A DNA stretch of 15,825 bases from a virus (IMGVR_UViG_2565956713_000002), one strand, 5' to 3'. Shown: positions 1 through 15,288, numbered from the stretch's first letter. The notes: generated by a model not told the origin, from the sequence alone. Made by a program: numbers and translations.

Positions 1-1224
1 ATGGCTGGCACAAACAAACTGAGCGACAAAAAGCTAAAAGCATTGCTGGGTTCTGAGCGTGAAGCGCCGATCATGATTGCCGATGGTGAGGGGCTAAGCG
101 TTAAGGTCTCGAAGCAAGGTAACGTTAGCTGGGTATTTTCATACCGGTTGGGAGGAAGGGGTAGCAAACTCGAACGTTTAACGCTTGGCCGTTACCCTGA
201 TATGCCGCTAAAACTTGCGCGAGAAAAGCGGGAACAGTGTCGCCAGTGGCTGGCTGGTGGGCTTGATCCGAAAACTGAGATTGAGCTGAGCACAGAAGAA
301 ACGCTTAAGCCTGTAACGGTTAAAGACGCCCTGGAATATTGGTTGGTGAATTACGCCAGGAGAAAGCGCAGTGATGAGGCGTTGGTGAGGGCGCAGCTAC
401 GCAAGCATATTTACCCGCGCCTTGGTCGTTATCCGATCACCAGATGTGAAACCCGCCATTGGGTGGCCTGTTTTGACGAAATAAACCAGACTAAACCCAT
501 GACCGCCGGCCGCATGTTCCAGATTTCTAAACAGGCGTTACGTTTCTGCAAGGTTCGCCGTTATGCTGCCAGTGATGCTCTGGCCTTTCTCACCATTCAG
601 GATGTAGGCCAGCCATCTGGTCAACGTGATCGCGTATTGTCAGATAGCGAGCTGGCTGATGTGTGGCGCTGTACAGATAGCGATGATCAGCAGCCGTATT
701 ATTCACGTCTGCTCAAAATGCTGGTGCTTTTTGGTGCGCGAACGATGGAAGTTCGCCTTTCTCGATGGTCAGAGTGGGATTTTACATCGTGGATTTGGAC
801 TGTACCGAAAGAGCATAGCAAAACCAGAGAGAAAATCGTGAGGTCGATACCTGAAGCTATACGCCCGTGGCTGGAAGAGTTAAAGCGCGAGACAGGGAAA
901 ACAGGTTTGTTACTGGGCGAAGATCGTACCCGTCAGGCTGTATCATTGAAAGGGCGCAGGCTTTTTAAAGATTTTCACCATAACGAGCCGTGGACACTTC
1001 ACGATCTGCGTCGGACGTTTTCTACGGGGCTAAACAATATGGGTATAGCACCGCATATAGTCGAGCTGCTGTTGGGCCATGCCTTGCCGGGAGTTATGGC
1101 GATTTATAACCGTAGTCTTTACTTACCGGAGAAGCTGGACGCGCTGAACAAGTGGTATGACCGCTTAGAACTTCTCGCGGGTAATCACTCTAATATCGTT
1201 ATTTTAAAGGCTGGTGAAAAATGA
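1..1224 (+). CDS. int: Tyrosine recombinase, P4-type integrase with N-terminal arm-binding domain
   Basis: C-terminal catalytic motif HDLRRTFSTGLNNMGIAPHIVELLLGHALPGVMAIYNRSLY (R..H..Y pattern); N-terminal LSDKKLKAL...ADGEGLSVKV...WVFSYR matches the arm-binding domain of P4-like integrases. The ATG sits at base 1, so the true start could be at or upstream of the window edge. Confidence 0.9.
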   Translation: MAGTNKLSDKKLKALLGSEREAPIMIADGEGLSVKVSKQGNVSWVFSYRLGGRGSKLERLTLGRYPDMPLKLAREKREQCRQWLAGGLDPKTEIELSTEETLKPVTVKDALEYWLVNYARRKRSDEALVRAQLRKHIYPRLGRYPITRCETRHWVACFDEINQTKPMTAGRMFQISKQALRFCKVRRYAASDALAFLTIQDVGQPSGQRDRVLSDSELADVWRCTDSDDQQPYYSRLLKMLVLFGARTMEVRLSRWSEWDFTSWIWTVPKEHSKTREKIVRSIPEAIRPWLEELKRETGKTGLLLGEDRTRQAVSLKGRRLFKDFHHNEPWTLHDLRRTFSTGLNNMGIAPHIVELLLGHALPGVMAIYNRSLYLPEKLDALNKWYDRLELLAGNHSNIVILKAGEK

Positions 1225-2024
1225 GAATTAGCCACAAAAAAGATTTGCCAACATGGTTTGATTTAGATAACTACACTCAATTTATTGGCATGTCAGATAA
1301 AGACTTATTTTATCAGTTGGTTGTTAGATATGACATGCTTGAAAACTTCTATCGATATGGCGGGTCTTTTTATAATGAACCTCTTACAAATAACGATGAA
1401 GTAGGAAGGATACTTGGAAATGGCGCGGTCGCTAATGCGATTGATAGAGCTACGTACTTCTATGATGCGTTTAAACTTCCTATTAAAAGAGAAGGTGTTT
1501 TGTCTGGTGGGGTTGCGTTACGACCAATGTCCATTGAAGACTTTATTTATATGAAAGATGCTGTAGATAATTATATGGAAAATAATTTTACGGGAACGGC
1601 TGAAAATTTAGTTTACCATTCATTTACAAGTGTTAGCTCATTTTTGGAACCAAATGACCTTTTTATTAAAGTTGATTTGTCACGCCCGGATGATTTATTG
1701 ATTGATGTGTTTAAAAAAAACCTCAAGAATTGGCGTGAGGAATTAAAAATAAAAGAAAAGGAAAAAACATACCAGTCATGGGAAACAATTAAAAAAAAGG
1801 TATACGATTATTCACTTTTCCCCGTAGTTGATTTGATGATCTGGGCTAAATCTCGCGGGGCATGCGTCACCAATGGCGTGCTTGCTGTGGCTGTGTTTCC
1901 GAACGGAGAGTATGACTCAACGCAGATAGCGCAAACCGTAAAGCCAAATATAGAAAAAATCTTCTCAATTTCTTCTATAGAAAAAATCAGGTCAGAACTT
2001 CAGGATAGAAAAATTCTTCCTTAA
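1221..2024 (+). CDS. Hypothetical protein, AT-rich cargo gene (267 aa), no recognisable motif
   Basis: Uninterrupted 267-codon ORF whose start overlaps the int stop (ATGA). Visibly AT-rich and Lys/Asn/Ile/Tyr-rich compared with flanking genes; contains two A8 tracts. Function not recognised. Confidence 0.6.
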   Translation: MRISHKKDLPTWFDLDNYTQFIGMSDKDLFYQLVVRYDMLENFYRYGGSFYNEPLTNNDEVGRILGNGAVANAIDRATYFYDAFKLPIKREGVLSGGVALRPMSIEDFIYMKDAVDNYMENNFTGTAENLVYHSFTSVSSFLEPNDLFIKVDLSRPDDLLIDVFKKNLKNWREELKIKEKEKTYQSWETIKKKVYDYSLFPVVDLMIWAKSRGACVTNGVLAVAVFPNGEYDSTQIAQTVKPNIEKIFSISSIEKIRSELQDRKILP

Positions 2025-2119
2025 TCTTGGTGGTCAAAACAATTTAATTTTCGTCTAGTGTGACATCCAATCACAAGGATAACAATAGCCCCCACAAACT
2101 TAGAAACAGTGGAGGCAAC

Positions 2120-2404
2120 ATGCAAATTATCACCTTTACCCCGCCAAATCCTGAACAACGCCGCACCATTCTGGAGGAGTACGGCTTCAAGTTCGATCGC
2201 CGAATCCGCGAAGATGAATGCAGCGAGATCACCAGTCTTTCTCGTTCGAGCCGCTGGAAGATGGAACAGCAGGGGCGCTTCCCGCCGCGCTGTCACTTTG
2301 GCCGCAACAGCTGTGCCTGGCTTCTTTCGGATGTGCTCTGGTGGGTTCGTAATCCGCCTGCCGTGGAAAACGTCAATAACCCGTACAGCCGCAAATCTGC
2401 TTAA
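2120..2404 (+). CDS. alpA: AlpA-family phage transcriptional regulator (excisionase-like HTH)
   Basis: Motif ITSLSRSSRWKMEQQGRFPPRCHFGRNSCAWLLSDVLWWV matches the AlpA pattern (LSRSTiyr...G.FP.P...G.r...W...ev..W). GGAGG lies 5 nt upstream of the ATG at 2120. The ORF-track start at 2060 was trimmed to this RBS-supported ATG. Confidence 0.8.
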   Translation: MQIITFTPPNPEQRRTILEEYGFKFDRRIREDECSEITSLSRSSRWKMEQQGRFPPRCHFGRNSCAWLLSDVLWWVRNPPAVENVNNPYSRKSA

Positions 2405-2424
2405 TTAACCACAGGTAATCAGAG

Positions 2425-3108
2425 ATGAAAAATATTAATGCCCTTAACGGGCAGGGATTCGCTCACCCTGTTGCCAGTAAAAGCGATATTAGCGTGCAGC
2501 TTAAACAGCTTCCTGCCGTCGAATTTCACGGGCAACGCGTGGTGACGTTCGCAATGATTGATACCGCGCACCAGCGACCTAAAGACACGGCTAAAAAGAC
2601 TTTTCAGCGTAATCGCACTCGCTTCATTGATGGTGAGGACTTTTTTATTGTCGGCGCGTCAGAGGTCGAATGGGGAGGGGCTGGATATTTAGACAGGGGC
2701 ATTAAACGCCCTGGCAAAAAAATGAACAGTCCGATACGTGGCCGCGTAACACTGATTACGGAATCAGGCTATCTGCTGCTGACCAAACCGTTTAACGATG
2801 ATTTGGCCTGGCAGGTACAGCGCCAGCTCGTGAAAACTTATTTCCGTTGCCCGGAGTTTGTCACTTTCCATCATGTGGATCTGCCGTCGCTCGAAGAACT
2901 GATCGCCATGCCGGTTACTGATGCGCAAAACGCCGTGACTCGTGCGGACAAGCATTCTAAGCAGTTTCATGGCTCACAGGGCAGTAATGGAATGAATCTC
3001 CGCAAGAAGGAACTCAAAGTTCTGCGTCCGGCGGTACGGCTGGTAGATGCGATGGGGCAGATTGATTTCGATAAATATGAGTGGGAGGCGGCACATGATC
3101 GCGCATAA
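2425..3108 (+). CDS. ORF6N/KilA-N-like domain phage regulatory protein
   Basis: N-terminal segment VEFHGQRVVTFAMIDTAHQRPKDTAKKTFQRNRTRFIDGEDFFIV resembles the ORF6N DNA-binding domain consensus. C-terminal half unrecognised. Confidence 0.5.
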   Translation: MKNINALNGQGFAHPVASKSDISVQLKQLPAVEFHGQRVVTFAMIDTAHQRPKDTAKKTFQRNRTRFIDGEDFFIVGASEVEWGGAGYLDRGIKRPGKKMNSPIRGRVTLITESGYLLLTKPFNDDLAWQVQRQLVKTYFRCPEFVTFHHVDLPSLEELIAMPVTDAQNAVTRADKHSKQFHGSQGSNGMNLRKKELKVLRPAVRLVDAMGQIDFDKYEWEAAHDRA

Positions 3109-3112
3109 AACA

Positions 3113-3132: not shown

Positions 3133-3225
3133 CCAATGGGAAAACACTAAACATAAGCCCGAACATCATAGTGATTTGCTGGCTGGTGGGCAATGTGATC
3201 AGTGTGCTGGCTTGCTGGTGGGCTA

Positions 3226-3417
3226 TCAACCTTTTGGTTCTATACCGCGCCGCTTTAGTTCTGCCCTGGCTAATTCTTTAAACCAGTTACCAAGGGTTAG
3301 ACCGTCAGAAGTTGCCGCCTCATTTACTTGTTGGCGTAGCTCTTTACTGATTCTGATTTGGAAGGTTGGAGACCATCCCTCACCGCGTGGCGATTTATCG
3401 CGCTTTAATGTTGACAT
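3226..3417 (-). CDS. Ribbon-helix-helix (Arc/CopG-like) DNA-binding protein, putative repressor
   Basis: FQIRISKELRQQVNEAATSDGLTLGNWFKELARAELKRRG fits the beta-strand then two helices RHH pattern. Its start codon overlaps the -35 of the divergent promoter. Confidence 0.6.
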   Translation of the reverse strand: MSTLKRDKSPRGEGWSPTFQIRISKELRQQVNEAATSDGLTLGNWFKELARAELKRRGIEPKG

Positions 3418-3458: not shown

Positions 3459-3556
3459 CAATATCAGTAGGTACAGTAAAAAGCAAAGCCCCGCAAGTGT
3501 CGTTACCACTCGCAGGGCTTCTAACCACCAACGATAACGAGAGTATCGAGGTAGCT

Positions 3557-3760
3557 ATGTTAAATCATACCACACACCCGCAAGGGCGGGACTCGCACAA
3601 CCTGAATAAATATATCTGGCGTTTTATCGCCCTGAGCACGGCACAACCGCGCGTGATTCACATCGTGGCCACCAGCGAACAGGAAGCACGCCAGCAATCC
3701 CCGGCTGGCTGCGTGATGGTATTCGCCGCCCGTATTCGTCAGGGGGTGTTCCATGCCTGA
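3557..3760 (+). CDS. Icd-like small protein (host cell division inhibitor family of P4-like elements)
   Basis: 67-aa ORF downstream of the operator-controlled promoter. Sequence YIWRFIALSTAQPR...VMVFAARI resembles Icd-like proteins as recalled from memory, not searched. Confidence 0.45.
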   Translation: MLNHTTHPQGRDSHNLNKYIWRFIALSTAQPRVIHIVATSEQEARQQSPAGCVMVFAARIRQGVFHA

Positions 3761-4073
3761 CATGACCAATTACCAGTACCTGATTAATCCGCATTTTAAC
3801 TGTGAGCATGATATTGCTAAAAAGGTTTATTCCGCTGCGGATGGGGCTACTGACAATATATCAATGGGTATTGCGTCAATTGGTAGCCTGATGTGGCATG
3901 CGTCAGAAAATGAGGACTATGACGAAAAGGCTATGCGCATTGATATGGGTAATATCGGTTTGTTACTGGCAATGCTTGGGCAGTTTGATATTTCGTTACG
4001 GTGCACCATTGAAAATGCCACAGATGCATTAAATGCCATAAAGAAAGCGAATACTGATTCAAATCGGGGATAA
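3753..4073 (+). CDS. Hypothetical protein (106 aa)
   Basis: ORF with AGGGGG 6 nt upstream of the ATG; start overlaps the Icd-like stop. No recognisable motif. Confidence 0.5.
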   Translation: MPDMTNYQYLINPHFNCEHDIAKKVYSAADGATDNISMGIASIGSLMWHASENEDYDEKAMRIDMGNIGLLLAMLGQFDISLRCTIENATDALNAIKKANTDSNRG

Positions 4074-4079
4074 ATAATC

Positions 4080-4379
4080 ATGAGAACATATTTATCTGGC
4101 TTGACTGCCAGCGGTTATGCACACCCCAAAATTATCCCCGGCGCTATTTATCTGGATAAGAACGGTAACAGAGTAACGGTAAAAGAACTGATGTTTGACC
4201 GTGTTTATTTTATTCGTGATGGCTATTCATTTCATAGTTCGCTGAACGTGGAGATCTTTATTTGCAGATTCCGGCGGGAAATCCCGCTTTCCAGAAATAA
4301 CCATGTGTCATGTATGGATGTTGATAAAAAACTACAGGAACTGAAAAACATGATTGCCGCGTGGAGAGAGCAGAAATGA
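4080..4379 (+). CDS. Hypothetical protein (99 aa)
   Basis: ORF in operon context immediately upstream of the replication gene. No recognisable motif. Confidence 0.5.
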   Translation: MRTYLSGLTASGYAHPKIIPGAIYLDKNGNRVTVKELMFDRVYFIRDGYSFHSSLNVEIFICRFRREIPLSRNNHVSCMDVDKKLQELKNMIAAWREQK

Positions 4380-6499
4380 AAAAAGCGCCAAATTTAAAAC
4401 ACCAGCCGCGTGACAAAATGACGGAAGTCATCATTTTTGCGGGTAGTGATGCGTGGGCACATGCGAAGCAGTGGCAGGAACAGGACGGGCGACTGGCTGG
4501 CGATAACGTGCCTCCTGTGTGGCTTGGTGAGCAGCAGTTATCCGAACTGGATAAGCTGCAAATCGTACCGGACGGACGCTATCGCGTGCGTCTCTATCAG
4601 GCGGGGTTATTGCGTCCGGGGCTTGTTAATACCATCGGGCAGAAACTGGCAGCGGCAGGTGTCAGGGATGCTGATTATTATCCTGAAGGAATGCACAGCC
4701 AGAAACGGGAGAACTGGCGCGAATATCTGGAACGTGAACGGGCAGAGCAGGCGGAAAAGAAAAAGGTAGTTGAACTGCCTGTAAAGAAAAAAGAGCCATG
4801 CTATCAGGATGATGAATTAAAGCCCAGCGTTGAAAGTCGCGTCGATGGTGTTTTCTGGGTAACGCCCAAAGTGGATAAGCAGTCAGGCGAAATTATCCGG
4901 CCTGAGACGTGGTTATGTTCTCCGCTTGAACTACTGGGAACGGGGACGATCGGTAAAGAGCATTACCGCGTGATGCGCTGGAAAAAATTAGCAAACCATG
5001 AAGTCATCACAATGGCGATCCCGTGTGGTGGCATTGGCGACCGTGACGGCTGGCGGTTGCTTAAAGATCACGGGCTGAATGTGACAACAAACGGCAAATA
5101 CAGGGCTATCCTGGCTGACTGGATGCAGTTAAGCGGAAGCCATGAGGAATGGCAGTTAAGCACAACAACGGGCTGGCATTTTGGCGCGTACATCATGCCG
5201 GACGGTTCAATCATTGGTGATTCTGAAAAACCGATCCTGTTTACCGGAAAAAGTGCCGCTGTTAATGGCTATTCGGTTGCGGGTACGGCGGAGGGCTGGC
5301 GCGACAGCGTGGCGCGGCTGGCTGGTGGCAATCCGTCCATGATGCTGGGTGTTGCCACGTCACTGGCAGCACCTTTGATTGGCCTTGTTGGTGCTGACGG
5401 CTTCGGGGTACATCTTTTCGAACAGTCATCAGCAGGGAAAACCACCACGCAGAACATCGCATCAAGTTTATGGGGAGAGCCGGACGCACAACGGCTTACC
5501 TGGTACGGAACGGCGTTAGGTATCGCCAACGAGGCAGAGGCGCACAACGACGGGCTGTTACCCCTGGATGAAATAGGCCAGGCCGGAAACGCGCGGGAGG
5601 TGTCCACGTCAGCCTATACGTTGTTTAACGGCTCCGGGAAATTACAGGGGGCGAAGGACGGCGGCAACCGGGAGATAAAACACTGGCGCACGGTGGCAAT
5701 CAGCACCGGAGAAATGGACGTTGAGACATTCCTCAAAACGGAGGGGATAAAAGTCAAAGCGGGGCAGCTTGTCCGCCTGCTTAACGTTCCGATGGAGAAA
5801 GCCACGCAATTTCACGAATACAGCACCGGAAAGGCGCACGCAGACGCGTTAAAGGATGCCTGGACTGCAAATCACGGGGCGGCGGGTCGTGAGTGGGTTA
5901 AATGGCTGGCAGACCACCAGCAGGAGGCAAAGGACACGGTAAGGGAATGCCGCGAACGGTGGCACAACCTGATACCGGAGAGCTACGGCGAGCAGGTCCA
6001 CCGCGTGGGGGAGCGTTTCGCCATACTGGAGGCCGCACTAGTGCTTTCCGGTCATATTACTGGCTGGGATGTTCAGGCGTGCCGTGATGCCATTCAGCAT
6101 AACTTTAATGCCTGGGTGAAGGAGTTCGGCACGGGTAACAGGGAATTTAAACAGATGGTTGAACAGGCTGAGGCGTTTTTGTCGTCGTTCGGGTTCAGTC
6201 GATACCTTCCTTACCCAAACAGTGATGAGCGTGATTTACCAATTAAAGATCTTGCCGGATACAGAAAGGGGAGTATCAGAAATGAAGATGATGAGTTCCG
6301 CTTTTACACGTTTCCTCATGTGTTTGAGGGTGAGATAGCACAGGGATTTAATCCGTCTCACTTTGCCCGCGCGTTGAGTGCTGCCGGAATGCTGGAAGCG
6401 GGTAACGATCGCCGTTACAAGAAAAAGGCGCTCGGCAAAATTGGGGGGAAGCAGCATGTTTTTTACGTGCTGATGTTCCAGCCTGAAGCAGAAGATTAA
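4376..6499 (+). CDS. Replication initiator, primase/helicase-like protein (TOPRIM-like N-terminus, DUF927-type ATPase with Walker A)
   Basis: Walker A-like SSAGKTT. N-terminal EVIIFAGSDAWAH resembles a TOPRIM start. Size (~707 aa) and position upstream of the iteron origin fit a satellite pri-rep gene. Start chosen at the ATG at 4376, preceded by GAGAGAG; 4361 and 4418 are alternatives. Confidence 0.75.
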   Translation: MKKAPNLKHQPRDKMTEVIIFAGSDAWAHAKQWQEQDGRLAGDNVPPVWLGEQQLSELDKLQIVPDGRYRVRLYQAGLLRPGLVNTIGQKLAAAGVRDADYYPEGMHSQKRENWREYLERERAEQAEKKKVVELPVKKKEPCYQDDELKPSVESRVDGVFWVTPKVDKQSGEIIRPETWLCSPLELLGTGTIGKEHYRVMRWKKLANHEVITMAIPCGGIGDRDGWRLLKDHGLNVTTNGKYRAILADWMQLSGSHEEWQLSTTTGWHFGAYIMPDGSIIGDSEKPILFTGKSAAVNGYSVAGTAEGWRDSVARLAGGNPSMMLGVATSLAAPLIGLVGADGFGVHLFEQSSAGKTTTQNIASSLWGEPDAQRLTWYGTALGIANEAEAHNDGLLPLDEIGQAGNAREVSTSAYTLFNGSGKLQGAKDGGNREIKHWRTVAISTGEMDVETFLKTEGIKVKAGQLVRLLNVPMEKATQFHEYSTGKAHADALKDAWTANHGAAGREWVKWLADHQQEAKDTVRECRERWHNLIPESYGEQVHRVGERFAILEAALVLSGHITGWDVQACRDAIQHNFNAWVKEFGTGNREFKQMVEQAEAFLSSFGFSRYLPYPNSDERDLPIKDLAGYRKGSIRNEDDEFRFYTFPHVFEGEIAQGFNPSHFARALSAAGMLEAGNDRRYKKKALGKIGGKQHVFYVLMFQPEAED

Positions 6500-6522: not shown

Positions 6523-6647
6523 TGCGGGTTATGCGGGTTATCCTGTGTGTAAGTGCATTAACTGTATGAATAAAAAGGAAATCAATAACCCGCACGTAAC
6601 CCGCAAAACGGCAGTTATAACCCGCAAAAGTGCGATTATAACCCGCA
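6523..6647. repeat. Iteron-type replication origin: 2 direct TGCGGGTTA copies, an AT-rich spacer, then 4 inverted TAACCCGCA copies
   Basis: Direct copies at 6523 and 6532; inverted copies at 6586, 6597, 6618 and 6639 (spacings 11, 21, 21 bp). AT-rich 45-bp spacer between the two groups. Lies immediately downstream of the rep gene. Confidence 0.65.
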
Positions 6648-6710: not shown

Positions 6711-7136
6711 ATGACAGCACAGATAGCTGCTTACGGGCGGTTGGTGGCTGACCCGCAGTTAAAGACCACCAGCAAAGGGACACAAATGGCGATGGCGAGT
6801 ATGGCGATTCCTCTTCCGTGCAGCCAGGCAGATGACGGAACAGCGACGATGTGGTTATCAATTCTGGCGTTTGGCAGACAGGCCGATGCACTGGCAAAAC
6901 ACCACAAAGGCGAGCTGGTGAGCGTGGCGGGTAACATGCAGGTAAGCCAGTGGACAGGCCAGAACGGGGAAACGCGGCAGGGCTGGCAGGTTATCGCAGA
7001 CAGCGTAATCAGTGCGCGAACGGCGCGACCTGGTGGCAAAAAAGGCCAGCAGGGGCAGGCCACTGACGCACTGAACAGGGCAAAACAACAGACAGGCCAG
7101 CACGATGACCCGTACGGGGATGAAATACCGTTTTAG
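6711..7136 (+). CDS. ssb: Single-stranded DNA-binding protein
   Basis: OB-fold-like N-terminal region, Gly/Gln-rich linker and the acidic C-terminal tail DDPYGDEIPF, matching the SSB D-D-D-I-P-F tail. Confidence 0.75.
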   Translation: MTAQIAAYGRLVADPQLKTTSKGTQMAMASMAIPLPCSQADDGTATMWLSILAFGRQADALAKHHKGELVSVAGNMQVSQWTGQNGETRQGWQVIADSVISARTARPGGKKGQQGQATDALNRAKQQTGQHDDPYGDEIPF

Positions 7137-7154: not shown

Positions 7155-7403
7155 ATGCCAGTGACATTTGAAGAAGTCCAGCAACATAAAAAGTTTCATG
7201 GTTTTGATGATCTGGAAACCACGACAGCAAAAAAATATCGCCGTCTGCTTTCTTCCGATGCGTTGTTTTTTGTAGATCATCATGATTTTCTGCGTAGCTC
7301 ACTGACAGGGGAAATTTTCGCAACCAACCGTGAGCAGGTGGAAGCGATGATCGAATATCTGTGGAAAATAAGACGCAGAATGCGGGATTCCATGAAACAG
7401 TAA
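7155..7403 (+). CDS. Hypothetical protein (82 aa)
   Basis: ORF with a G-rich RBS, followed by a clear intrinsic terminator. Confidence 0.45.
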   Translation: MPVTFEEVQQHKKFHGFDDLETTTAKKYRRLLSSDALFFVDHHDFLRSSLTGEIFATNREQVEAMIEYLWKIRRRMRDSMKQ

Positions 7404-8900: not shown

Positions 8901-9461
8901 ATGAAAAACACCGATTTTGAAATCCGCACATCTGAACTGACCGCCAGCAATAAAAAGCTGGTGGGGTATGCCGTTCGCTGGAACAGCCTTTCAGAAATTA
9001 TCTGGGACGAATTCCGCGAACAGTTCACGCCGGGGGCTTTTGCTGACTATCTGGCGACGGGTAATGATGTGCGCTGCCTGTATGAGCATGACTATACCCA
9101 ACTGCTGGGGCGCACCAAATCCGGCACTCTGGTACTGACTGAGGATAACACCGGGTTACGTTTTGAACTGACACCGCCGGATACCCAGCTTGGAAAAGAT
9201 GTGCTTACGCTGGTGGAGCGTGGCGACATTACAGGAATGAGCTTTGGTTTTCGCGCATTATGCGAGGAGTGGAGTATCGCGCAAAAACCGTATTTGCGTA
9301 CCGTAACCGCCGCTGAACTCCGTGAAATCACAATAACGTCGATGCCTGCTTATCCAGAATCTGGCGTGGAGATTGCCCACCGTTCGTTGTTTGCACAGCA
9401 CCCTGAATTATGCCCGACAGGAAATAATCGTCATCGCTGGTCTGAGCTGGCGGGGTTGTGA
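8901..9461 (+). CDS. Prohead maturation protease, HK97 family
   Basis: 186-aa protein with GYAVRWNSLS...FTPGAF...GDITGMSFGF, resembling the HK97 prohead protease family; GGAG RBS upstream. Confidence 0.8.
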   Translation: MKNTDFEIRTSELTASNKKLVGYAVRWNSLSEIIWDEFREQFTPGAFADYLATGNDVRCLYEHDYTQLLGRTKSGTLVLTEDNTGLRFELTPPDTQLGKDVLTLVERGDITGMSFGFRALCEEWSIAQKPYLRTVTAAELREITITSMPAYPESGVEIAHRSLFAQHPELCPTGNNRHRWSELAGL

Positions 9462-9462
9462 T

Positions 9463-10677
9463 ATGTGGTGGCCTTTTAGTCGTAAAAAAAGCGAGCAGCG
9501 TAACCTGTCCATTGATGATTTTCTGGCGCTGTCCGGCGTACCGAATACCGGATCCGGAGAATATGTTTCTGCCGGGACGGCTGAATCATTGCCTGCAGTG
9601 ATGAACGCGGTTTCTGTCATCGCTGAGGCGGTGGCCACGATGCCGTGTTATCTGTATCTGGTACGTAATGACAAGGGCAGGGAGGCGCGGGAATGGCTGG
9701 ACAGTCACCCGGTAGATATTCTGCTGAATGAGCAGCCTAATTCGTGCCAGACACCTTACCAGTTTAAACGCACAATGATGCGTCACTGCCTGCTGAACGG
9801 TAACGCCTATGCGGTTATTGAGTGGGGGCAAGACGGGCAGCCAAAATCACTTCATCCTTATGCGCCGGGGTGTGTTGTACCGGAACGCACAGGCGCACAC
9901 AAATACCGCTATACCATCACCGAACCCTATACAGGAACGGTGCGCACGTATTTACAGGAAGAAGTTCTGCATCTCCGCTATGCCTCGGATGATGGCTTTC
10001 TGGGGCGTTCCCCTGTCACGATTTGCCGTGAGGCGCTTGGGCTTGGCCTTGCTCAACAGCGCCACGGAGCCAGCATTATGAAAGATGGCATGATGGCGGC
10101 AGGGATTATCACGTCAGGCGAATGGCTGGACGGCGTGAAAGGTAAACAGGCATTAGATGCTCTGGAACGCTACAAGGGGGCGAAAAATGCCGGAAAAACG
10201 CCAATCCTTGAAGGGGGCATGGATTACAAGCAACTGGGAATGAGTAACCAGGATGCGGAATGGCTGGCCTCCCGTCGCTTCTCCATTGAAGACATCGCCC
10301 GCATGTTCAACGTATCGCCTATTTTTCTGCAGGAATACAGCAACAGCACCTACAGCAATTTCAGCGAGGCAAGCCGCGCGTTTCTGACCATGACAATGCG
10401 CCCATGGCTGGCGAACTTCGAACAGCAAATCAAGGCCGCTTTGCTGGTGGCTTCTCCCGTACCTGGTACCCGTTATCTGGTTGAGTTTGATTCAGCCGAT
10501 TTATTACGCGCCACACCCACCGAACGTTATGCCACGTATGAGAAAGGGATTAAGAACGGGATCATGAATCCGAACGAAGCCCGTGAGCGTGAGGGTATGC
10601 CGCCGCGTGAAGGTGGTGATGAGTTCAGCCAGGCATGGAAACAGACTGTGGAAATTAAAGGGAGAAAAGATGAGTGA
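9463..10677 (+). CDS. Portal protein, HK97 family
   Basis: FSIEDIARMFNVSPIFLQEYSNSTYSNFSEASRAFLTMTMRPWLANFEQQ matches the conserved portal core. The ATG at 9463 directly abuts the protease stop; the ORF-track start at 9373 was trimmed. Confidence 0.85.
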   Translation: MWWPFSRKKSEQRNLSIDDFLALSGVPNTGSGEYVSAGTAESLPAVMNAVSVIAEAVATMPCYLYLVRNDKGREAREWLDSHPVDILLNEQPNSCQTPYQFKRTMMRHCLLNGNAYAVIEWGQDGQPKSLHPYAPGCVVPERTGAHKYRYTITEPYTGTVRTYLQEEVLHLRYASDDGFLGRSPVTICREALGLGLAQQRHGASIMKDGMMAAGIITSGEWLDGVKGKQALDALERYKGAKNAGKTPILEGGMDYKQLGMSNQDAEWLASRRFSIEDIARMFNVSPIFLQEYSNSTYSNFSEASRAFLTMTMRPWLANFEQQIKAALLVASPVPGTRYLVEFDSADLLRATPTERYATYEKGIKNGIMNPNEAREREGMPPREGGDEFSQAWKQTVEIKGRKDE

Positions 10678-10972
10678 AGCCAGAATTACACCTGATGAAG
10701 TCAGGGCACATCTTCGACTTGATGATGATTTATCCGGTGAAGGCGAACTTCTGAAAATGTATACCGATGCGGCGCTGGAAGCCTGCCAGAAGCATATCGG
10801 GAAACGTTTTGAAGACGGGCTGGAATTTACCCCGGCAATGCGTGTTGGTTGCCTGATGTACATCGCTTTCCTGTACGAGAACCGGGAAGCGGTTTCACCA
10901 GTGGAGCACTCGGAACTGCCTATGGCTATTTCTGCGCTCTGGTCAGTTTATCGTGACGTAGGGGTGTACTGA
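10670..10972 (+). CDS. Head-tail connector protein (gp6-like)
   Basis: ARITPDEVRAHLRLDDDLSGEGELLKMYTDAALEACQKHIGKRF resembles the gp6-like connector family; start overlaps the portal stop. Confidence 0.6.
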   Translation: MSEARITPDEVRAHLRLDDDLSGEGELLKMYTDAALEACQKHIGKRFEDGLEFTPAMRVGCLMYIAFLYENREAVSPVEHSELPMAISALWSVYRDVGVY

Positions 10973-11412
10973 TGCCGTGGCAACCATTAAGGCGATGCAC
11001 TGAGCCTGGCTGTAATAAGCGCGTGAAGTCCGGCAAGTGTGAAGAGCACAGGCGGGCTGCATGGCGTGCAGAGGATGCCAGACGGGGACACCGCCGCGCG
11101 CGCGGGTATTCCCGACAGTGGGACAAATACCGCGCCCTGTACCTGAGCAAAAACCCGTTATGCGTGCGTTGTCTGGCTAAGGGGATTTATACGCCAGCTC
11201 TTGTGGTGGATCACATCATTCCCATCAATGGCGGCGGTGATGTTCTCTTCTGGCCTGAGTGGAATCACCAGGCATTGTGCCAGACGTGCCACAACCGTAA
11301 GACGACACGGGAAGATCCAGCCACGAAAGCAAACCGTAAAGCGGGCATGTATCGCGAGCAGGAAGAACGGGCGGCACACCGTAACGACTGGATGTATGGC
11401 GATGATGACTGA
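10972..11412 (+). CDS. HNH endonuclease (packaging-associated)
   Basis: Cys-rich motifs CTEPGCNKRVKSGKCEEH and VDHIIPINGGGDVLFWPEWNHQALCQTCHNRK (HNH with zinc-binding cysteines); position beside the terminase genes. Confidence 0.8.
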   Translation: MPWQPLRRCTEPGCNKRVKSGKCEEHRRAAWRAEDARRGHRRARGYSRQWDKYRALYLSKNPLCVRCLAKGIYTPALVVDHIIPINGGGDVLFWPEWNHQALCQTCHNRKTTREDPATKANRKAGMYREQEERAAHRNDWMYGDDD

Positions 11413-11581
11413 ACAGGAGCAAACCAGGCTGATACGTGGACTGATAAGGCAGCGTGACACATGGAAGACACAGGAGACAGAGCACAAAGCCAACAGGACA
11501 GGGCGCACAAAACGCACCACAGCGAAGCGATTAACCGACCGTGACCGCGAGGTCATGGAATGTTTTCGCAATCGCTGGTGA

Positions 11582-11700
11582 GGCCGTCAGAGGGGGTGGG
11601 GGTGGTTTTCAGGACGAAACCGTCCCTGCCGGACACCGACCGCCCCCTCAAATTTTTGTGCACGGTAATTTTTTTGAAAATAATTGGGCGAAAAAAGAAC
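11582..11700. other. Candidate cos/packaging-site region: G-run inverted repeat (GAGGGGGTGG ... CCGCCCCCTC) and an internal hairpin, between HNH and terS
   Basis: Inverted G/C-rich arms read directly, with an internal AGGACG-AAAC-CGTCC hairpin. In HK97-like cos phages that pair an HNH gene with terminase, cos lies just upstream of terS. Confidence 0.3.
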
Positions 11701-12057
11701 ATGGCAAGACCACCAAAAGCCCCCGCTTACCTGGATGAAATCGCGGTCAGGCAGTGGAAGGAAAAATCGCGCCAGCTTTCCGGGCGGGAAGACCTTACCC
11801 CCGCCGACTGGAGCAATCTGGAACTGTATTGTGTTAACTACTCCATATACCGCAAAGCCGTCGAAGACCTTGCGACGCGCGGGTTCAGCATTGTTAACAG
11901 TCAGGGTAGCGAGAGCAGAAACCCCGCACTGAGCGCAAAGGCTGACGCAGAAAGAATAATGATCAAAATGGCTTCTTTGCTGGGTTTTGACCCGGTAAGC
12001 CGTCGCAGAAATCCACCGGAAACAGAGGAAGAGGACGAACTTGACCGCCTGGCATGA
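11701..12057 (+). CDS. Terminase small subunit (P27-like family)
   Basis: 118-aa protein MARPPKAPAYLDEIAVRQWKE...DLTPADWSNLELYCVNYSIYRKAVEDL; position immediately upstream of terL. The ORF-track start at 11560 was trimmed to the internal ATG. Confidence 0.7.
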   Translation: MARPPKAPAYLDEIAVRQWKEKSRQLSGREDLTPADWSNLELYCVNYSIYRKAVEDLATRGFSIVNSQGSESRNPALSAKADAERIMIKMASLLGFDPVSRRRNPPETEEEDELDRLA

Positions 12058-13702
12058 GTACGCAGAAGGCGTAAAAAACGGCAAAATTACGGCCTGTAAA
12101 CGACTGAAACAGGCCGTTAAACGGTATTTTTCTGACCTTGAAAACTCCCTTTACACGTTCGATCCGGAGGTCGTGGAGCGGTTTATTGCCTTTTCCCGGG
12201 TGTGTCCGCACGTAAAAGGCGCAATGCGCGGTAGTCCCATTGAACTGGAGCCGTGGCAGCAGTTCGCCTTTGCCTGCATCCTGGGCTTTAAGGTTAAGGC
12301 CACCGGACGGCGCAAATACACCAGCGCATTCATTGAAGTACCGCGAAAAAATGCCAAATCCACGGTCGCCGCTATCCTGGCTAACTGGTTTCTGGTTATG
12401 GAAAACGGGCAGCAGGATATTTACACCGCCGCCGTGAGTCGTGATCAGGCGCGGATCGTGTTTGATGATGCGCGTCAGATGTGCCTTTTATCCCGACCGT
12501 TACGAAAGCGGGTAAATATTCAGGCACACAAGGTGATACACCCGAAAACCAACAGCCTGTTAAAGCCACTGGCAGCAAAAGCGGCAACCATTGAAGGTAC
12601 AAATCCGAGTCTTGCCATTGTGGATGAATATCACCTGCACCCTGACAACGGGGTTTATTCCGCACTTGAGCTGGGGATGGGGGCGCGTCCGGAGGGGCTG
12701 TTATTTGCCATCACCACATCGGGGAGCAACGTTGTTTCAGCCTGTAAACAACACTATGACTATTGCTGTCAGATACTGGATGGTGAAGAGGTGAACGAAT
12801 CCATGTTCGTTCTGATTTATGAGCTGGATGATGAAAGCGAGGTTGACGATCCGGCGATGTGGATAAAGGCGAATCCCAATATCGATGTTTCCGTAGATCG
12901 TGAAAAACTGGCCTCAACCATCCAGAAAGCGCGGGGTATTCCGTCGCAGTGGGTGGAAATGCTCACCAAGCGATTCAATATCTGGTGTCAGGGGGCTACG
13001 CCGTGGATGGGTAACGGTGCATGGGCTGAGTGCGCCGGAACGTTCACGGAGGAAGATTTACACGGTCAGGAGTGTTACGCGGGGCTTGATTTATCATCCA
13101 CAAGCGACATCTCCAGCGTGTGCTATGCCTTTCCGGTTGGTAAAACCATTATGCTGGTTTCTCGTCACTATCTGCCGGAATTTCAGCTACAGAACCCCGC
13201 CAATAAAAACCGCGCCATCTATCGCCAGTGGGCAAAGGCGGGCTGGATACGCACAACACCGGGTGACTGCATTGATTATGACCGTATCCGTGATGACATC
13301 ATGGCGGATGCAGAGAATTTCAATATCAGGCTGGTGGGCTTTGATACGTGGAACGCCACGCACCTGAGAACGCAGTTACAGGGGGCAGGCTTTGAGGTGG
13401 AGCCGTTCCCGCAAACCTACCTTCGTTTCAGTCCGGCGGCGAAATCGTTCGAGGTTTTTGTTAACCGGAAGGTGATTGTGCATCGTGGTGATCCGGTGCT
13501 GGCCTGGTCAATGAGTAATGTTGTGATGCAGAGTGACGCGAACGCCAATATCAAGCCGAACAAGAAAAAATCATCCAACAAGATAGACCCGAGCGTTGCG
13601 GCGCTGATGGCGTTTGGCACATTCCAGGCTGAGCATGAGGAATTTGCATTTGATATGAGCGACAGCCAGAAAGAGCGACTAGCGGCATTTGATGGGGTAT
13701 GA
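12041..13702 (+). CDS. Terminase large subunit (ATPase plus nuclease)
   Basis: 553-codon ORF with Walker A-like VPRKNAKST, Walker B-like LAIVDEYHL and C-terminal nuclease-like acidic motifs (GLDLSSTSD, VGFDTWN). The ORF begins with TTG at 12041, overlapping terS by 17 nt; the start is uncertain. Confidence 0.85.
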   Translation: MTAWHEYAEGVKNGKITACKRLKQAVKRYFSDLENSLYTFDPEVVERFIAFSRVCPHVKGAMRGSPIELEPWQQFAFACILGFKVKATGRRKYTSAFIEVPRKNAKSTVAAILANWFLVMENGQQDIYTAAVSRDQARIVFDDARQMCLLSRPLRKRVNIQAHKVIHPKTNSLLKPLAAKAATIEGTNPSLAIVDEYHLHPDNGVYSALELGMGARPEGLLFAITTSGSNVVSACKQHYDYCCQILDGEEVNESMFVLIYELDDESEVDDPAMWIKANPNIDVSVDREKLASTIQKARGIPSQWVEMLTKRFNIWCQGATPWMGNGAWAECAGTFTEEDLHGQECYAGLDLSSTSDISSVCYAFPVGKTIMLVSRHYLPEFQLQNPANKNRAIYRQWAKAGWIRTTPGDCIDYDRIRDDIMADAENFNIRLVGFDTWNATHLRTQLQGAGFEVEPFPQTYLRFSPAAKSFEVFVNRKVIVHRGDPVLAWSMSNVVMQSDANANIKPNKKKSSNKIDPSVAALMAFGTFQAEHEEFAFDMSDSQKERLAAFDGV

Positions 13703-13992
13703 CGAGAATGACTGAAACCGATCTACTAAAAATAATTCGCTGCGTTACCGGAGTCTGCCAGGCAACAGGCAAACCGGAGGCCAAGCAGCCGGATACCGTC
13801 ACCGCTGAAAATTACGCGCGTGTGGTGGCTAAGGTGATGCGCCGTGACGGTATTGAGCTTAACGGCGTGGATATGCGCAACATACGAACCAGAGTCCTTG
13901 AGTTGCTGGCATACCGTCGCCGTTCTCAACAACGGAGGGAGAGCGCGAAAAATACTTACCAGTGGAAGAAGCCGGAACGGTTGCGGCGGTAG
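13699..13992 (+). CDS. Hypothetical protein (97 aa), last gene of the element
   Basis: ORF whose start overlaps the terL stop (ATGA). Basic C-terminus; no recognisable motif. Confidence 0.45.
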   Translation: MTRMTETDLLKIIRCVTGVCQATGKPEAKQPDTVTAENYARVVAKVMRRDGIELNGVDMRNIRTRVLELLAYRRRSQQRRESAKNTYQWKKPERLRR

Positions 13993-14331
13993 ATTCCTGA
14001 TATTCAGGAAAACCACGAATCTGTGGGTTTTACTGGCGCGGTTACGGCGGTGACACGCACCGAGGCAGAACAATTACCGTAGGTTAAAGCGACAGTATTC
14101 ACACCAAAGGCAGAAATTAGCGGTTAACGTAACTGACTGATATTTTCAGGAACAGCCAACGGCTGAGGCCGGAGCTATAAGAATAGCTTTGGGTACAGTC
14201 CTCAGTTTTGAGGGATGTTAACCAACTGAATAATAAGCAAACCTCAAAATTGAGTTTTGTATCTGCCTGAGTTATTTCTGTGCTAACTTGTTGATATTCC
14301 CGACGGCCCAAAAATGGGTTGGCTGGTTGGT

Positions 14332-14449
14332 GAGTTGCAGATTTGCAACTCGACCATGAAACTACGGAAACTACCCGTAGTTTGGGTAGTAAGAGCAACA
14401 CCCAGATTTTGGGGCTTACTCGCGATCCCCAAATAAAGGGGATCGGTGG
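14332..14449. repeat. 118-bp direct repeat, copy 1 (starts with near-palindrome GAGTTGCAGATTTGCAACTC)
   Basis: Direct comparison with 14766..14883 shows 6 mismatches in 118 bp. Contains AAACTAC x2 followed by GTAGTTT and GGTAGT, and a GATCCCC-AAATAAA-GGGGATC hairpin. Confidence 0.85.
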
Positions 14450-14478
14450 CATCACTGGCCCCACTTTCCTGATGTGTT

Positions 14479-14632
14479 TGCGGGTTATTTGGGAGAGGTT
14501 GCGGGTTATTTTGAATGACTTGCGGGTTACGATTTGGCTAACATTTGAACATGTCATTTTTCAACGCATTGATATTAAATAATAAAAAATACTTAGCACG
14601 CGAAGATAACCCGCTAACCCGCATAACCCGCA
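14479..14632. repeat. Second iteron cluster: 3 direct TGCGGGTTA copies at exact 21-bp spacing, a ~75-bp AT-rich spacer, then 3 inverted TAACCCGC copies
   Basis: Direct copies at 14479, 14500 and 14521; inverted copies at 14607, 14615 and 14624. Same 9-mer as the origin at 6523..6647. Confidence 0.65.
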
Positions 14633-14765
14633 CTGTTTTGTATATATATACGAAAAATTGCATTCAGGAGGGGTAGCAAAATCCCTACCGTCTCTTATCT
14701 CTTGGAGTGCCCGCCTCTTCGAATTTTAACCCCCGTGAAATTACAAAATTTCCCTGACTGATGGC

Positions 14766-14883
14766 GAGTTGCAGATCTGCAACTCGACTATGAAACTACG
14801 GAAACTACCCGTAGTTTGGGTAGTAAGAGTAACACCCAGATTTTGGGGCTTACTTGCGATACCCAAATACAGGGGATCGGTGG
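14766..14883. repeat. 118-bp direct repeat, copy 2 (starts with perfect 20-bp palindrome GAGTTGCAGATCTGCAACTC)
   Basis: About 95% identical to copy 1, 434 bp downstream. The 20-mer at 14766..14785 is its own reverse complement. Confidence 0.85.
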
Positions 14884-15288
14884 AAGAAATATCGTTTCTC
14901 ATATGTGAGTACCGAGGGCGGAATTCCGCCTTCGGTTACTTATTGTGCTCATGCACAGGGAGGGGCGGGTCAAATCTCTGTACCCTGACGTCTTCCGGAC
15001 TGCCCGCTCCATCGATTTTTTATACCCGCGAAAAATGCTTCACGCTGGTGGGCATGATGCGTGGGGATGCTGATAATGGGTTATTGTGGGATAGATGTCT
15101 CATACAATAAGAGATTCATAATTTGCTTTTTAATACTGTTATACTCGCCGCCTTTCTACCGTGCTCATGCTTTCGCATATTTTCGGCTTTGTGCAATAAT
15201 CCGTATATCACTCGGTGTATCACTTTTAGCTAAAATGCATGGCGTGTTTGTTAATTTAACTGATTAAAATCAGTGGGATATAAAGTTT

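What the first reader, a model, noticed from the sequence alone, without database searches (positions are those of the whole stretch)
1..15060. Capsid-forming phage satellite architecture: head and terminase genes but no tail or lysis genes
The element carries int, alpA, a pri-rep gene with an adjacent iteron origin, SSB, and a full HK97-type head module (capsid with delta domain, protease, portal, connector, HNH, TerS, TerL). It then stops, with no tail, tail-fibre, holin or endolysin genes, at ~15 kb. This matches satellites that make their own small capsids and package with their own terminase while taking tails from a helper phage. The gene order (capsid, then protease, then portal) also differs from canonical HK97-like phages, where portal and protease precede capsid.
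Basis: partly seen in the sequence, partly recalled or inferred. Interest (0 to 1): 0.7.

Follow-up and report, generated by a model that had tools for sequence, protein, structure and literature searches.

The report
Capsid-forming phage satellite in E. coli hpt

Summary

In a 99.4% identical genome (strain DAX4) the gene upstream of int is the core gene gcd.

The element is 15,479 bp long. It is bounded by a 20-bp att core (TATGAAACATAYTGTAGAAG) that covers the hpt start codon. It therefore ends at window position 15307, not 15060.

It is a relative of EcCIEDL933, the tested prototype of the capsid-forming PICIs. Gene order is the same, protein identities are 56-94% in the packaging module, and dN/dS is 0.09-0.32.

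Real differences from the prototype:
- It lacks the head-closure gene, as do cf-PICIs in 143 complete E. coli genomes.
- Its iteron origin is split into two clusters 8 kb apart.
- It uses a rare insertion site (19 of 5426 genomes).

Side observations are a strong excess of Chi sites and an unannotated, structured 121-nt element.

Verdict: new member of a known kind; modest interest.

The parts
1..1224 (+). Tyrosine integrase with an arm-binding domain
   Evidence: PF13356, PF22022 and PF00589. It is 47% identical to the EcCIEDL933 integrase. The attL core lies outside the window, at about -191 to -172 (L001 7809-7828).
1221..2024 (+). DUF6387 accessory gene, function unknown
   Evidence: PF19924, E=2e-29. 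It has no counterpart in EcCIEDL933.
2120..2404 (+). AlpA-type regulator/excisionase
   Evidence: PF05930, E=5e-10. phrog_2790 'excisionase and transcriptional regulator', E=2e-39.
2425..3108 (+). ORF6N anti-repressor-like gene in the variable slot downstream of alpA
   Evidence: PF10543. PHROG anti-repressor families. The 2025 preprint notes that the gene downstream of alpA varies between islands.
3226..3417 (-). The only minus-strand gene: a small Arc-like ORF, possibly a regulator
   Evidence: PGAP calls a CDS here in DAX4. There is only a weak match to phrog_228 (Arc-like), E=2e-4.
3497..3760 (+). Icd-like protein
   Evidence: NF033153, E=1e-19. It is 56% identical to its EcCIEDL933 counterpart.
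3753..4379 (+). A hypothetical gene (3753-4073) and a DUF4222 gene (4080-4379)
   Evidence: phrog_15327 and PF13973.
4376..6499 (+). pri-rep (DUF927 primase-helicase)
   Evidence: PF06048, E=8e-48. It is 89% identical to EcCIEDL933 pri-rep, with dN/dS 0.13.
6524..6646 (.). Iteron cluster 1 (ori): 2 inverted plus 4 direct TAACCCGC copies around an AT-rich spacer
   Evidence: It is colinear with the first half of the EcCIEDL933 origin.
6711..7136 (+). SSB
   Evidence: PF00436. It is 68% identical to its EcCIEDL933 counterpart.
7155..7403 (+). Conserved 82-aa hypothetical gene
   Evidence: phrog_1957. An orthologue exists in EcCIEDL933 at 43% identity.
7677..8846 (+). HK97-fold major capsid protein with an N-terminal delta-like extension
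   Evidence: PF05065, E=8e-72. It is 63% identical over its full length to the EcCIEDL933 capsid, which is PDB 9GYI (T=4; its mature form starts at residue 93).
8901..9461 (+). S78 prohead protease
   Evidence: PF04586, E=6e-46.
9463..10677 (+). Portal
   Evidence: PF04860, E=6e-93. It is 81% identical to its EcCIEDL933 counterpart.
10670..10972 (+). gp6-like head-tail adaptor (Ad1), the only head-tail joining gene present
   Evidence: TIGR01560, E=5e-20. phrog_40 'head-tail adaptor Ad1'. PF05135. The head-closure gene that precedes it in EcCIEDL933 is absent.
10972..11412 (+). HNH endonuclease
   Evidence: PF01844. It is 84% identical to its EcCIEDL933 counterpart.
11396..11581 (+). 61-aa protein, likely orthologue of EcCIEDL933 gene 1792
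   Evidence: It is 77% identical to the EDL933 gene between HNH and terS. The gene number 1792 is my inference, made by counting from capsid = 1786. A mutant of the hypothetical gene 1792 transfers poorly.
11590..11660 (.). Putative HK97-type cos site (inferred)
   Evidence: This is the only 120-bp gap in the packaging operon. A G-run plus GACCGCCCCCTCAAATTTTTG resembles the HK97 genome ends ...GACCGCCGCCAAA|GTTTGAATTT. The region is conserved in EcCIEDL933. The linear record of the related element vB_KppS-Ant begins 22 bp before terS.
11701..12057 (+). Small terminase, P27 family
   Evidence: PF05119. It is 88% identical to its EcCIEDL933 counterpart.
12041..13702 (+). Large terminase
   Evidence: PF03354 and PF20441. 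It is 94% identical to its EcCIEDL933 counterpart, with dN/dS 0.09.
13708..13992 (+). Conserved 94-aa protein at the 3' end of the island, function unknown
   Evidence: phrog_1561, E=3e-47. It is 66% identical to its EcCIEDL933 counterpart.
14326..14446 (+). 121-nt structured element, copy 1
14480..14631 (.). Iteron cluster 2: 3 inverted plus 3 direct TAACCCGC copies around a 77-bp AT-rich spacer
   Evidence: It is 78% identical to the second half of the EcCIEDL933 origin, which in that island sits directly after pri-rep. It occupies the same 3' position in L003.
14760..14880 (+). 121-nt structured element, copy 2, followed by a terminator-like hairpin at 14911-14936
15203..15224 (+). Candidate integrase arm-type site, GTATATCACTCGGTGTATCACT
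   Evidence: An exact second copy lies 22 bp upstream of the int ATG (L001 7957-7978). Both copies are inside the island, one on each side of the att core (family D4). The binding role is inferred.
15288..15307 (+). attR core TATGAAACATATTGTAGAAG, overlapping the hpt start codon
   Evidence: Three-way alignment with the K-12 empty site and the DAX4 left junction. More than 5,300 genomes with an empty site match the left-junction query only up to this core.
15289..15825 (+). Host hpt gene. Its upstream region and first four codons are supplied by the island, changing Thr4 to Ile.
   Evidence: PF00156. Annotation; alignment.

Best explanation
The window holds an intact capsid-forming phage-inducible chromosomal island (cf-PICI). 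It is 15,479 bp long and is integrated by its own tyrosine integrase into the first 20 bp of the E. coli hpt gene.

Inferred life cycle, by homology with EcCIEDL933:
1. A helper phage switches on alpA.
2. The island excises.
3. It replicates from its iteron origin using its DUF927 pri-rep protein and SSB.
4. It builds its own small HK97-fold procapsid from capsid (with a cleavable N-terminal delta region), S78 protease and portal.
5. Its own HNH-TerS-TerL machinery cuts and packages unit-length DNA at an HK97-type cos site between the 61-aa gene and terS.
6. The filled head joins a helper phage tail through the island's gp6-like adaptor. Lysis is also left to the helper.

Shown here: the gene content, the boundaries, orthology to the tested prototype, and purifying selection.

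Inferred only: induction, capsid size, the cos position, and where the tail comes from.

This island has no head-closure gene. That function, if it is needed, must come from the helper or be dispensable.
For: - **Gene content and order:**
- **Boundaries:** the 20-bp att core is duplicated at both junctions. The empty site in K-12 has gcd next to hpt. More than 5,300 genomes match the left junction only up to the core.
- **No tail or lysis genes upstream:** in the 99.4% identical strain DAX4 the neighbour is gcd.
- **Orthology to the prototype:** EcCIEDL933 has the same order. Identities are TerL 94%, pri-rep 89%, TerS 88%, HNH 84%, portal 81%, capsid 63%, protease 62%, adaptor 56%.
- **Selection:** dN/dS is 0.09-0.32 for the ten genes with a usable estimate; adaptor and int were saturated.
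- **Capsid structure:** the best PDB match is 9GYI, the T=4, 47.5 nm EcCIEDL933 capsid that holds 15.5 kb.
- **Published behaviour of the prototype:** alpA-dependent induction by the helper, island-made small capsids, exclusive packaging of the island, and a need for helper tails.
- **Published family definitions** are met.
- **Spread:** close capsid relatives with the same module occur in dozens of species of Enterobacterales, Pasteurellaceae and Orbaceae.
Against: - No experiment on this island exists, and no helper is identified.
- One of the eleven SatelliteFinder core components, the head-closure/connector gene, is absent. The 2025 preprint shows that the adaptor-connector pair sets tail specificity.
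- The published capsid maturation motif SxGxxAD is not exactly kept. The window has STSTDSGRD where EcCIEDL933 has STGVPAD.
- The left end of the element is outside the window. It is known only from near-identical genomes.
Confidence: 0.88

Rival explanations
1. It is a cf-PICI by descent but can no longer make infective particles on its own terms. Having lost the head-closure gene, its filled heads would leak DNA or fail to dock to tails. On this view it is a stranded or declining lineage.
For: EcCIEDL933 and 54 of 60 measurable relatives carry a second gene between portal and HNH. The adaptor-connector pair determines tail compatibility. Nearly every packaging-module mutant of EcCIEDL933 loses transfer.
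Against: - The single-gene arrangement is found intact in 143 complete E. coli genomes at 94-100% identity.
- It recurs in six other genera, from Leclercia to Gilliamella.
- The portal stop overlaps the adaptor start cleanly, with no gene remnant.
- All other packaging genes are intact, and those with a usable estimate are under purifying selection.
- SatelliteFinder already records many 10-of-11-component 'type B' cfPICIs.
Confidence: 0.08
2. It is a decayed HK97-like prophage that lost its tail and lysis genes by deletion. On this view it is not a satellite.
For: The head and packaging proteins are HK97-type. The next-best capsid structures in the PDB are of a gene transfer agent (RcGTA).
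Against: - The att boundaries are precise, and the size matches a T=4 head.
- The left half is a PICI-type int-alpA-pri-rep module.
- The capsid-protease-portal order is the reverse of HK97.
- Hundreds of genomes and many species hold the same architecture.
- There are no pseudogenes, and dN/dS is far below 1.
- Only 6 phage records match the window's DNA, and the longest match is itself a 16.5 kb cf-PICI-like element.
Confidence: 0.03
3. It is a classical PICI that does not form its own capsid but remodels helper capsids.
For: It shares the int-alpA-pri-rep module and the 3' 94-aa gene plus 121-nt element with a PICI-like island that lacks terminase genes (L007).
Against: It encodes a portal, a head-tail adaptor and TerL. 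These are forbidden components in the SatelliteFinder PICI model and core components of the cfPICI model.
Confidence: 0.01

Closest known systems
EcCIEDL933 (E. coli O157:H7 EDL933; NZ_CP008957.1 about 1,680,329-1,695,600), the experimentally characterised prototype cf-PICI
   Same: - Size is about 15.5 kb.
- Both have int, alpA, Icd-like, DUF4222, DUF927 pri-rep, TAACCCGC iterons and SSB.
- Both then have capsid, protease, portal, adaptor, HNH, a 61-aa gene, TerS, TerL and a 94-aa gene, in the same order.
- Protein identities are 56-94% in the packaging module.
   Different: - The integrase (47% identical) and the insertion site differ: hpt here, roxA-phoQ there.
- The window lacks the head-closure gene and PerC.
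- The window carries DUF6387 and an ORF6N gene instead.
- The two halves of the origin are adjacent in EcCIEDL933 but 8 kb apart here.
- EcCIEDL933 lacks the 121-nt element.
KpCIDSM30104 / EcCIGN02175 (cf-PICIs that release tail-less capsids which join tails from other species; preprint 10.1101/2025.02.11.637232)
   Same: They meet the same family definition: 10-18 kb, an own packaging module, and no lysis genes or complete tail module.
   Different: Those islands carry both adaptor and connector genes, which set tail specificity.
'Escherichia phage vB_KppS-Ant' (LR881103.1, 16.5 kb, from an induced lysate)
   Same: It has the same architecture and 78% DNA identity over 31% of the window. Its origin in an induced lysate suggests such elements are packaged into particles.
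   Different: It has a head-closure-like 'gp9' between portal and connector. It has a different replication gene and a large extra gene after TerL. It was deposited as a phage, not as a satellite.
Phage HK97
   Same: Both have an HK97-fold capsid with a cleaved N-terminal domain, an S78 protease, HNH-TerS-TerL cos packaging, and similar sequence at the inferred cos site.
   Different: - HK97 is 39.7 kb and has tail and lysis genes.
- Its order is portal-protease-capsid.
- Its capsid is T=7.
Classical E. coli PICIs (EcCICFT073 type)
   Same: They share the int-alpA-pri-rep left half and alpA-dependent induction.
   Different: They use helper capsid proteins and the helper TerL. They have no portal, adaptor or TerL of their own.

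Membership tests
cf-PICI (capsid-forming PICI) | A discrete element of about 10-18 kb bounded by att repeats | tested here: met
   It is 15,479 bp between 20-bp cores. The empty site is seen in K-12 and in more than 5,300 other genomes.
cf-PICI (capsid-forming PICI) | An integrase at one end, plus a regulation module (AlpA in Proteobacteria) | tested here: met
   int 1-1224. AlpA, PF05930, 39.5 bits against a cut-off of 21.
cf-PICI (capsid-forming PICI) | Its own replication module (pri-rep with an origin) | tested here: met
   A DUF927 protein 89% identical to EcCIEDL933 pri-rep. There are 12 iterons against 0.42 expected.
cf-PICI (capsid-forming PICI) | Its own capsid, prohead protease and portal | tested here: met
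   PF05065, PF04586 and PF04860. The capsid matches PDB 9GYI at E=3e-154.
cf-PICI (capsid-forming PICI) | Both head-tail joining genes (adaptor and connector/head closure) | tested here: not met
   Only the gp6-like adaptor is present. tblastn with the EcCIEDL933 head-closure protein finds nothing in the window (best E=0.39). The portal-to-HNH gap is 295 bp, against 628 bp in EcCIEDL933. SatelliteFinder still accepts elements with 10 of 11 components as type B cfPICI.
cf-PICI (capsid-forming PICI) | Its own HNH, TerS and TerL | tested here: met
   PF01844, PF05119, PF03354 and PF20441. Identities to EcCIEDL933 are 84-94%.
cf-PICI (capsid-forming PICI) | No tail module, holin or endolysin | tested here: met
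   No such hit in any annotated gene or scanned spare ORF. The flanks are gcd and hpt.
cf-PICI (capsid-forming PICI) | The proteobacterial gene order: capsid-protease-portal-connector, then hnh-terS-terL | tested here: met
   Coordinates, compared with the published order.
cf-PICI (capsid-forming PICI) | Induction by a helper phage, small island-made capsids, exclusive self-packaging, and dependence on helper tails | not testable with these tools
   This is known only for EcCIEDL933 and a few others.
Classical PICI | No portal, head-tail adaptor/connector or TerL (forbidden components in the SatelliteFinder PICI model) | tested here: not met
   Portal, adaptor and TerL are all present.
Complete HK97-like temperate phage | Tail, tail-fibre and lysis modules inside the same att-bounded element | tested here: not met
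   None found in the window or in the DAX4 flanks.

The most novel reading that the evidence does not exclude
The sub-lineage to which this island belongs has no head-closure gene. It may complete its particles differently from EcCIEDL933, either by taking the head-closure (stopper) protein as well as the tail from the helper, or by docking tails directly on the gp6-like adaptor. That would change which phages can serve as tail donors.

Three further features may reflect biology not yet described for this family:
- strong selection for Chi sites;
- an origin split into two iteron clusters on opposite sides of the circular form;
- a conserved 121-nt structured element at the 3' end of the island.

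Possible roles are protection of concatemers from RecBCD, origin control, or a regulatory RNA.
Probability: 0.3. Interest if true: 0.5.

Novelty: new member of a known kind. Interest (0 to 1): 0.3.

Why it matters
As a classification, this adds little. cf-PICIs were named in 2022-2023, have a solved capsid structure, and are reported in about 13% of Enterobacteriaceae genomes.

Its value lies in the details:
- It is a clean, intact example of the cf-PICI branch that lacks the head-closure gene. That branch is a natural test of which head-tail joining parts a satellite must carry and which it can borrow.
- It integrates into, and rebuilds, the 5' end of a housekeeping gene (hpt).
- It shows features that may be general to the family and that the papers I searched did not report: Chi enrichment, a split origin, and a 121-nt element.

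Tried and rejected
- **Rfam** on the whole window at E<=1 found nothing. The 121-nt element is therefore not a described RNA family.
- **ARAGORN** found no tRNA. The insertion site is not a tRNA gene.
- **alpA:** my first Pfam scan used the wrong frame (2109-2408) and gave no hit. This was corrected.
- **PADLOC** found no defence gene among the accessory ORFs.
- **The 146-aa minus-strand ORF at 14117-14557** and other spare ORFs have no PHROG hit, and PGAP does not call them. I rejected them as genes.
- **The 121-nt element as the cos site:** rejected. EcCIEDL933 and L003 lack the element, and the HNH-terS gap resembles the HK97 genome ends.
- **A scan of species-representative genomes** for the element's invariant 20-mer found nothing.
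- **Covariation in the 121-nt element** is nearly absent because the sequence is so conserved: one compensatory pair and a -0.59 covariation term.
- **Locating EcCIEDL933:** two 50-kb fetches of the EDL933 chromosome missed it before it was found.
- **Supplementary tables** of the cf-PICI and SatelliteFinder papers are not held. I could not check whether this island or the hpt site is already listed.
- **The promoter-like site upstream of hpt** (15172-15200) is no better than chance: 2 found against 2.6 expected.

Full report

Yes. The window carries a continuous run of + strand ORFs.

- Tyrosine integrase with an arm-binding domain, 1-1224.
- AlpA, 2120-2404 (PF05930, E=5e-10). My first scan used the wrong frame and missed it.
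- DUF927 primase-helicase, 4376-6499.
- SSB, 6711-7136.
- HK97-family capsid, 7677-8846.
- S78 prohead protease, 8901-9461.
- Portal, 9463-10677.
- gp6-like head-tail adaptor, 10670-10972.
- HNH, 10972-11412.
- P27-family TerS, 11701-12057.
- TerL, 12041-13702.

The iterons next to pri-rep are real: TAACCCGC occurs 12 times against 0.42 expected.

No annotated gene, and no spare ORF that I scanned, matches a tail, holin, endolysin or defence family.

**2. Where does the element begin and end, and what lies upstream?**

The window is 99.4% identical over its full length to the chromosome of E. coli strain DAX4. There the gene just upstream of int is gcd, a core gene. Downstream is hpt. In K-12, gcd and hpt are neighbours with no insert.

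A three-way alignment shows a 20-bp core, TATGAAACATA(C/T)TGTAGAAG. It is present once in K-12 and at both junctions of the island.
- The right copy is at window 15288-15307 and contains the hpt start codon.
- The left copy lies about 190 bp before the window start.
- The element is 15,479 bp and ends at 15307, not at 15060.

An independent check agrees. A query across the left junction matches more than 5,300 E. coli genomes only up to the core. It matches across the junction in just 19 of 5426 genomes. So hpt is a rare insertion site.

The single mismatch in the core is of the host type in attL and of the island type in attR. This places strand exchange in the last 8 bp (inference). It also means the island supplies the upstream region of hpt and its first four codons, changing Thr4 to Ile.

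A 22-bp sequence, GTATATCACTCGGTGTATCACT, occurs on each side of the core inside the island (family D4). It is a candidate arm-type site for the integrase (inference).

In this near-identical relative there are none.

**3. What is it?**

I located the experimentally characterised prototype EcCIEDL933 in the EDL933 chromosome, between roxA and phoQ. Sixteen of the window's 19 genes have an orthologue there, in the same order.

| Gene | Identity to EcCIEDL933 |
|---|---|
| TerL | 94% |
| pri-rep | 89% |
| TerS | 88% |
| HNH | 84% |
| portal | 81% |
| 61-aa gene | 77% |
| SSB | 68% |
| 94-aa gene | 66% |
| capsid | 63% |
| protease | 62% |
| adaptor | 56% |
| int | 47% |
| AlpA | 47% |

dN/dS between the two islands is 0.09-0.32 for the ten genes with a usable estimate. 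For the adaptor and int, synonymous sites are saturated and no ratio could be computed. No gene is flagged as a pseudogene in DAX4. So this is a maintained element, not a decaying prophage.

The best solved-structure match of the capsid is PDB 9GYI (E=3e-154). Its sequence matches the EcCIEDL933 capsid end to end (E=7e-257), and the preprint names 9GYI as that capsid's deposited model.

**4. How it most likely works**

For EcCIEDL933 the literature shows the following:
- Induction depends on alpA and is triggered by helper phages HK106 and HK446.
- The island makes its own small capsids.
- Island DNA is packaged exclusively into those capsids.
- Transfer is lost when almost any packaging gene is mutated.
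- Helper tail genes are needed, but helper capsid and terminase genes are not (preprint 10.1101/2022.09.08.507074).

The EcCIEDL933 capsid is T=4, 47.5 nm across, and holds 15.5 kb. Its protein is cleaved so that the mature form starts at residue 93 (preprint 10.1101/2025.02.11.637232).

By homology I infer the same cycle here. The published motif SxGxxAD at the start of the mature protein is not exactly kept, however.

I place the cos site at about 11590-11660. This is the only sizeable gap in the packaging operon. Four points support it:
- Its G-run and GACCGCCCCCTCAAATTTTTG resemble the two ends of the HK97 genome.
- It is conserved in EcCIEDL933.
- The linear record of a related 16.5 kb element from an induced lysate starts 22 bp before terS.
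- HNH-dependent cos phages carry cos between hnh and terS (my own knowledge of the HK97 and phi12 systems).

**5. Comparison with what is known**

The element meets the working definition of the 2025 preprint: 10-18 kb; integrase, replication and regulation modules; its own packaging module; no lysis genes or complete tail module.

SatelliteFinder uses 11 core components and found 969 cfPICIs. They occur in 13% of Enterobacteriaceae genomes (PMC10085698). This island has 10 of the 11 components, which corresponds to that tool's 'type B'.

I could not check whether this very island, or the hpt site, is in the published tables. Those supplements are not held.

**6. Real differences from the prototype**

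*(a) The head-closure gene is missing.* In EcCIEDL933 it lies between portal and adaptor. Here the portal stop overlaps the adaptor start, and tblastn finds no remnant.

This is not a private deletion:
- 143 complete E. coli genomes have the same contiguous portal-adaptor-HNH junction at 94-100% identity.
- 355 genomes carry the EDL933-type head-closure gene.
- Among 60 measurable relatives in other species, 6 have the short arrangement and 54 the long one.

The three small conserved genes of unknown function all have orthologues in EcCIEDL933, so none of them replaces the missing gene. The 2025 preprint shows that the adaptor-connector pair sets tail specificity. This branch may therefore borrow one more part from its helper, or dock tails differently. 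That is inference.

*(b) The origin is split.* EcCIEDL933 has two adjacent iteron clusters directly after pri-rep. Here the first cluster stays at 6524-6646. The homologue of the second, 78% identical, sits at 14480-14631 after the packaging module. A related island, L003, has the same arrangement.

*(c) The accessory genes differ.* This island has a DUF6387 gene after int and an ORF6N anti-repressor-like gene after alpA. The slot after alpA is already noted as variable.

**7. Things seen in passing**

*The 121-nt element.* The 1.3 kb after the last gene is non-coding and holds two 94% identical copies of a 121-nt element, at 14326-14446 and 14760-14880.
- It folds far better than shuffled sequence on either strand (z from -5 to -7).
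- It has no Rfam match.
- It occurs unannotated in 664 of 5426 E. coli genomes and in 70 IMG/VR contigs.
- In both other islands I examined it lies just after the conserved 94-aa gene, and those two islands use different insertion sites.
- Its core is almost invariant. The few variable paired positions change to G-U wobbles on the + strand. That is a weak hint of a + strand RNA.
- Its function is unknown.

*Chi sites.* GCTGGTGG occurs 13 times in the island.
- Shuffling synonymous codons among the island's genes gives 4.0 on average and never more than 9 in 2000 trials.
- Dinucleotide shuffles of the whole window give 0.5 against 14 observed there.
- EcCIEDL933 also has 13, and L003 has 16.
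- The density is about 0.85 per kb, against roughly 0.2 per kb for the E. coli chromosome (my own knowledge).
- I found no Gam-like gene. Protection of linear replication or packaging intermediates from RecBCD is a plausible reason (inference).
- The one paper in the held library that mentions Chi sites, RecBCD and PICIs together is a general review of microbial defences.

*A relative inside a prophage gene.* A related cf-PICI (L003) is inserted inside the large terminase gene of an HK97-like prophage. The same junction is found in 36 genomes.

**8. Verdict**

Both the observation and the interpretation are right. The class is already known and well studied, so as a discovery this is ordinary.

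I rate it a new member of a known kind, with interest of about 0.3. The modest remaining interest lies in the branch that lacks a head-closure gene, the split origin, the Chi excess and the 121-nt element.

Noticed in passing
window 14326-14446 and 14760-14880: Two 94% identical copies of an unannotated 121-nt element. It folds strongly (z from -5 to -7) and has no Rfam match. It occurs in 664 of 5426 E. coli genomes and in 70 IMG/VR contigs. In both other islands examined it lies just after the conserved 94-aa gene, at different insertion sites. It is absent from EcCIEDL933. Its function is unknown. G-U-preserving changes hint weakly at a + strand RNA.
   Followed up: partly
window 253-15051 (13 sites inside the island); also L006 30100-45600 and L003 2500-17430: Strong excess of Chi sites (GCTGGTGG). 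The island has 13, against 4.0 expected when synonymous codons are shuffled (P<0.0005). The whole window has 14, against 0.5 from dinucleotide shuffles. EcCIEDL933 has 13 and L003 has 16. This may protect linear intermediates from RecBCD. None of the papers I searched reports it for PICIs.
   Followed up: partly
window 14480-14631 compared with 6524-6646; L006 36194-36507: The iteron origin is split. The two clusters are adjacent after pri-rep in EcCIEDL933. Here they lie 8 kb apart, roughly opposite each other on the circular form. L003 has the same layout.
   Followed up: partly
window 10670-10972; L006 41103-41441: The head-closure gene of EcCIEDL933 is cleanly absent here. The same single-gene arrangement is found in 143 E. 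coli genomes, against 355 with the gene. It is also found in 6 of 60 relatives in other genera.
   Followed up: yes
window 15288-15307 and 15289-15825; L001 7809-7828: The island integrates into the first codons of hpt and rebuilds the 5' end of the gene. The upstream region of hpt and its first four codons come from the island, and residue 4 changes from Thr to Ile. Only 19 of 5426 genomes have an island at this site.
   Followed up: yes
L003 1435-2463 and 17430-18173 (E. coli OkiPb01701): A related cf-PICI is inserted inside the large terminase gene of an HK97-like prophage, splitting it. The prophage's portal, capsid and tail genes remain downstream. The same terL-int junction occurs in 36 genomes, and about 900 genomes have the uninterrupted terL.
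   Followed up: partly
window 15203-15224; L001 7957-7978: An exact 22-bp repeat, GTATATCACTCGGTGTATCACT, lies inside the island on each side of the att core. One copy is 22 bp upstream of the int start codon. It is a candidate arm-type binding site for the integrase.
   Followed up: no
window 3182-3221: Two copies of TGGCT(G/T)GCTGGTGGGC, each holding a Chi site, lie 32 bp apart in the non-coding stretch next to the only minus-strand gene (3226-3417, weakly Arc-like). This may be a regulatory region.
   Followed up: no
L007 2533-5121 (E. coli O145:H28 RM13514): A PICI-like island next to clpS has a fused prohead protease/capsid gene. No terminase gene lies between that gene and the island's end. 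It shares the 94-aa gene and the 121-nt element with the window.
   Followed up: no
L099-L144 (Xenorhabdus species): Several Xenorhabdus genomes hold multiple loci that encode this capsid family. X. innexi, for example, has at least six such contigs.
   Followed up: no
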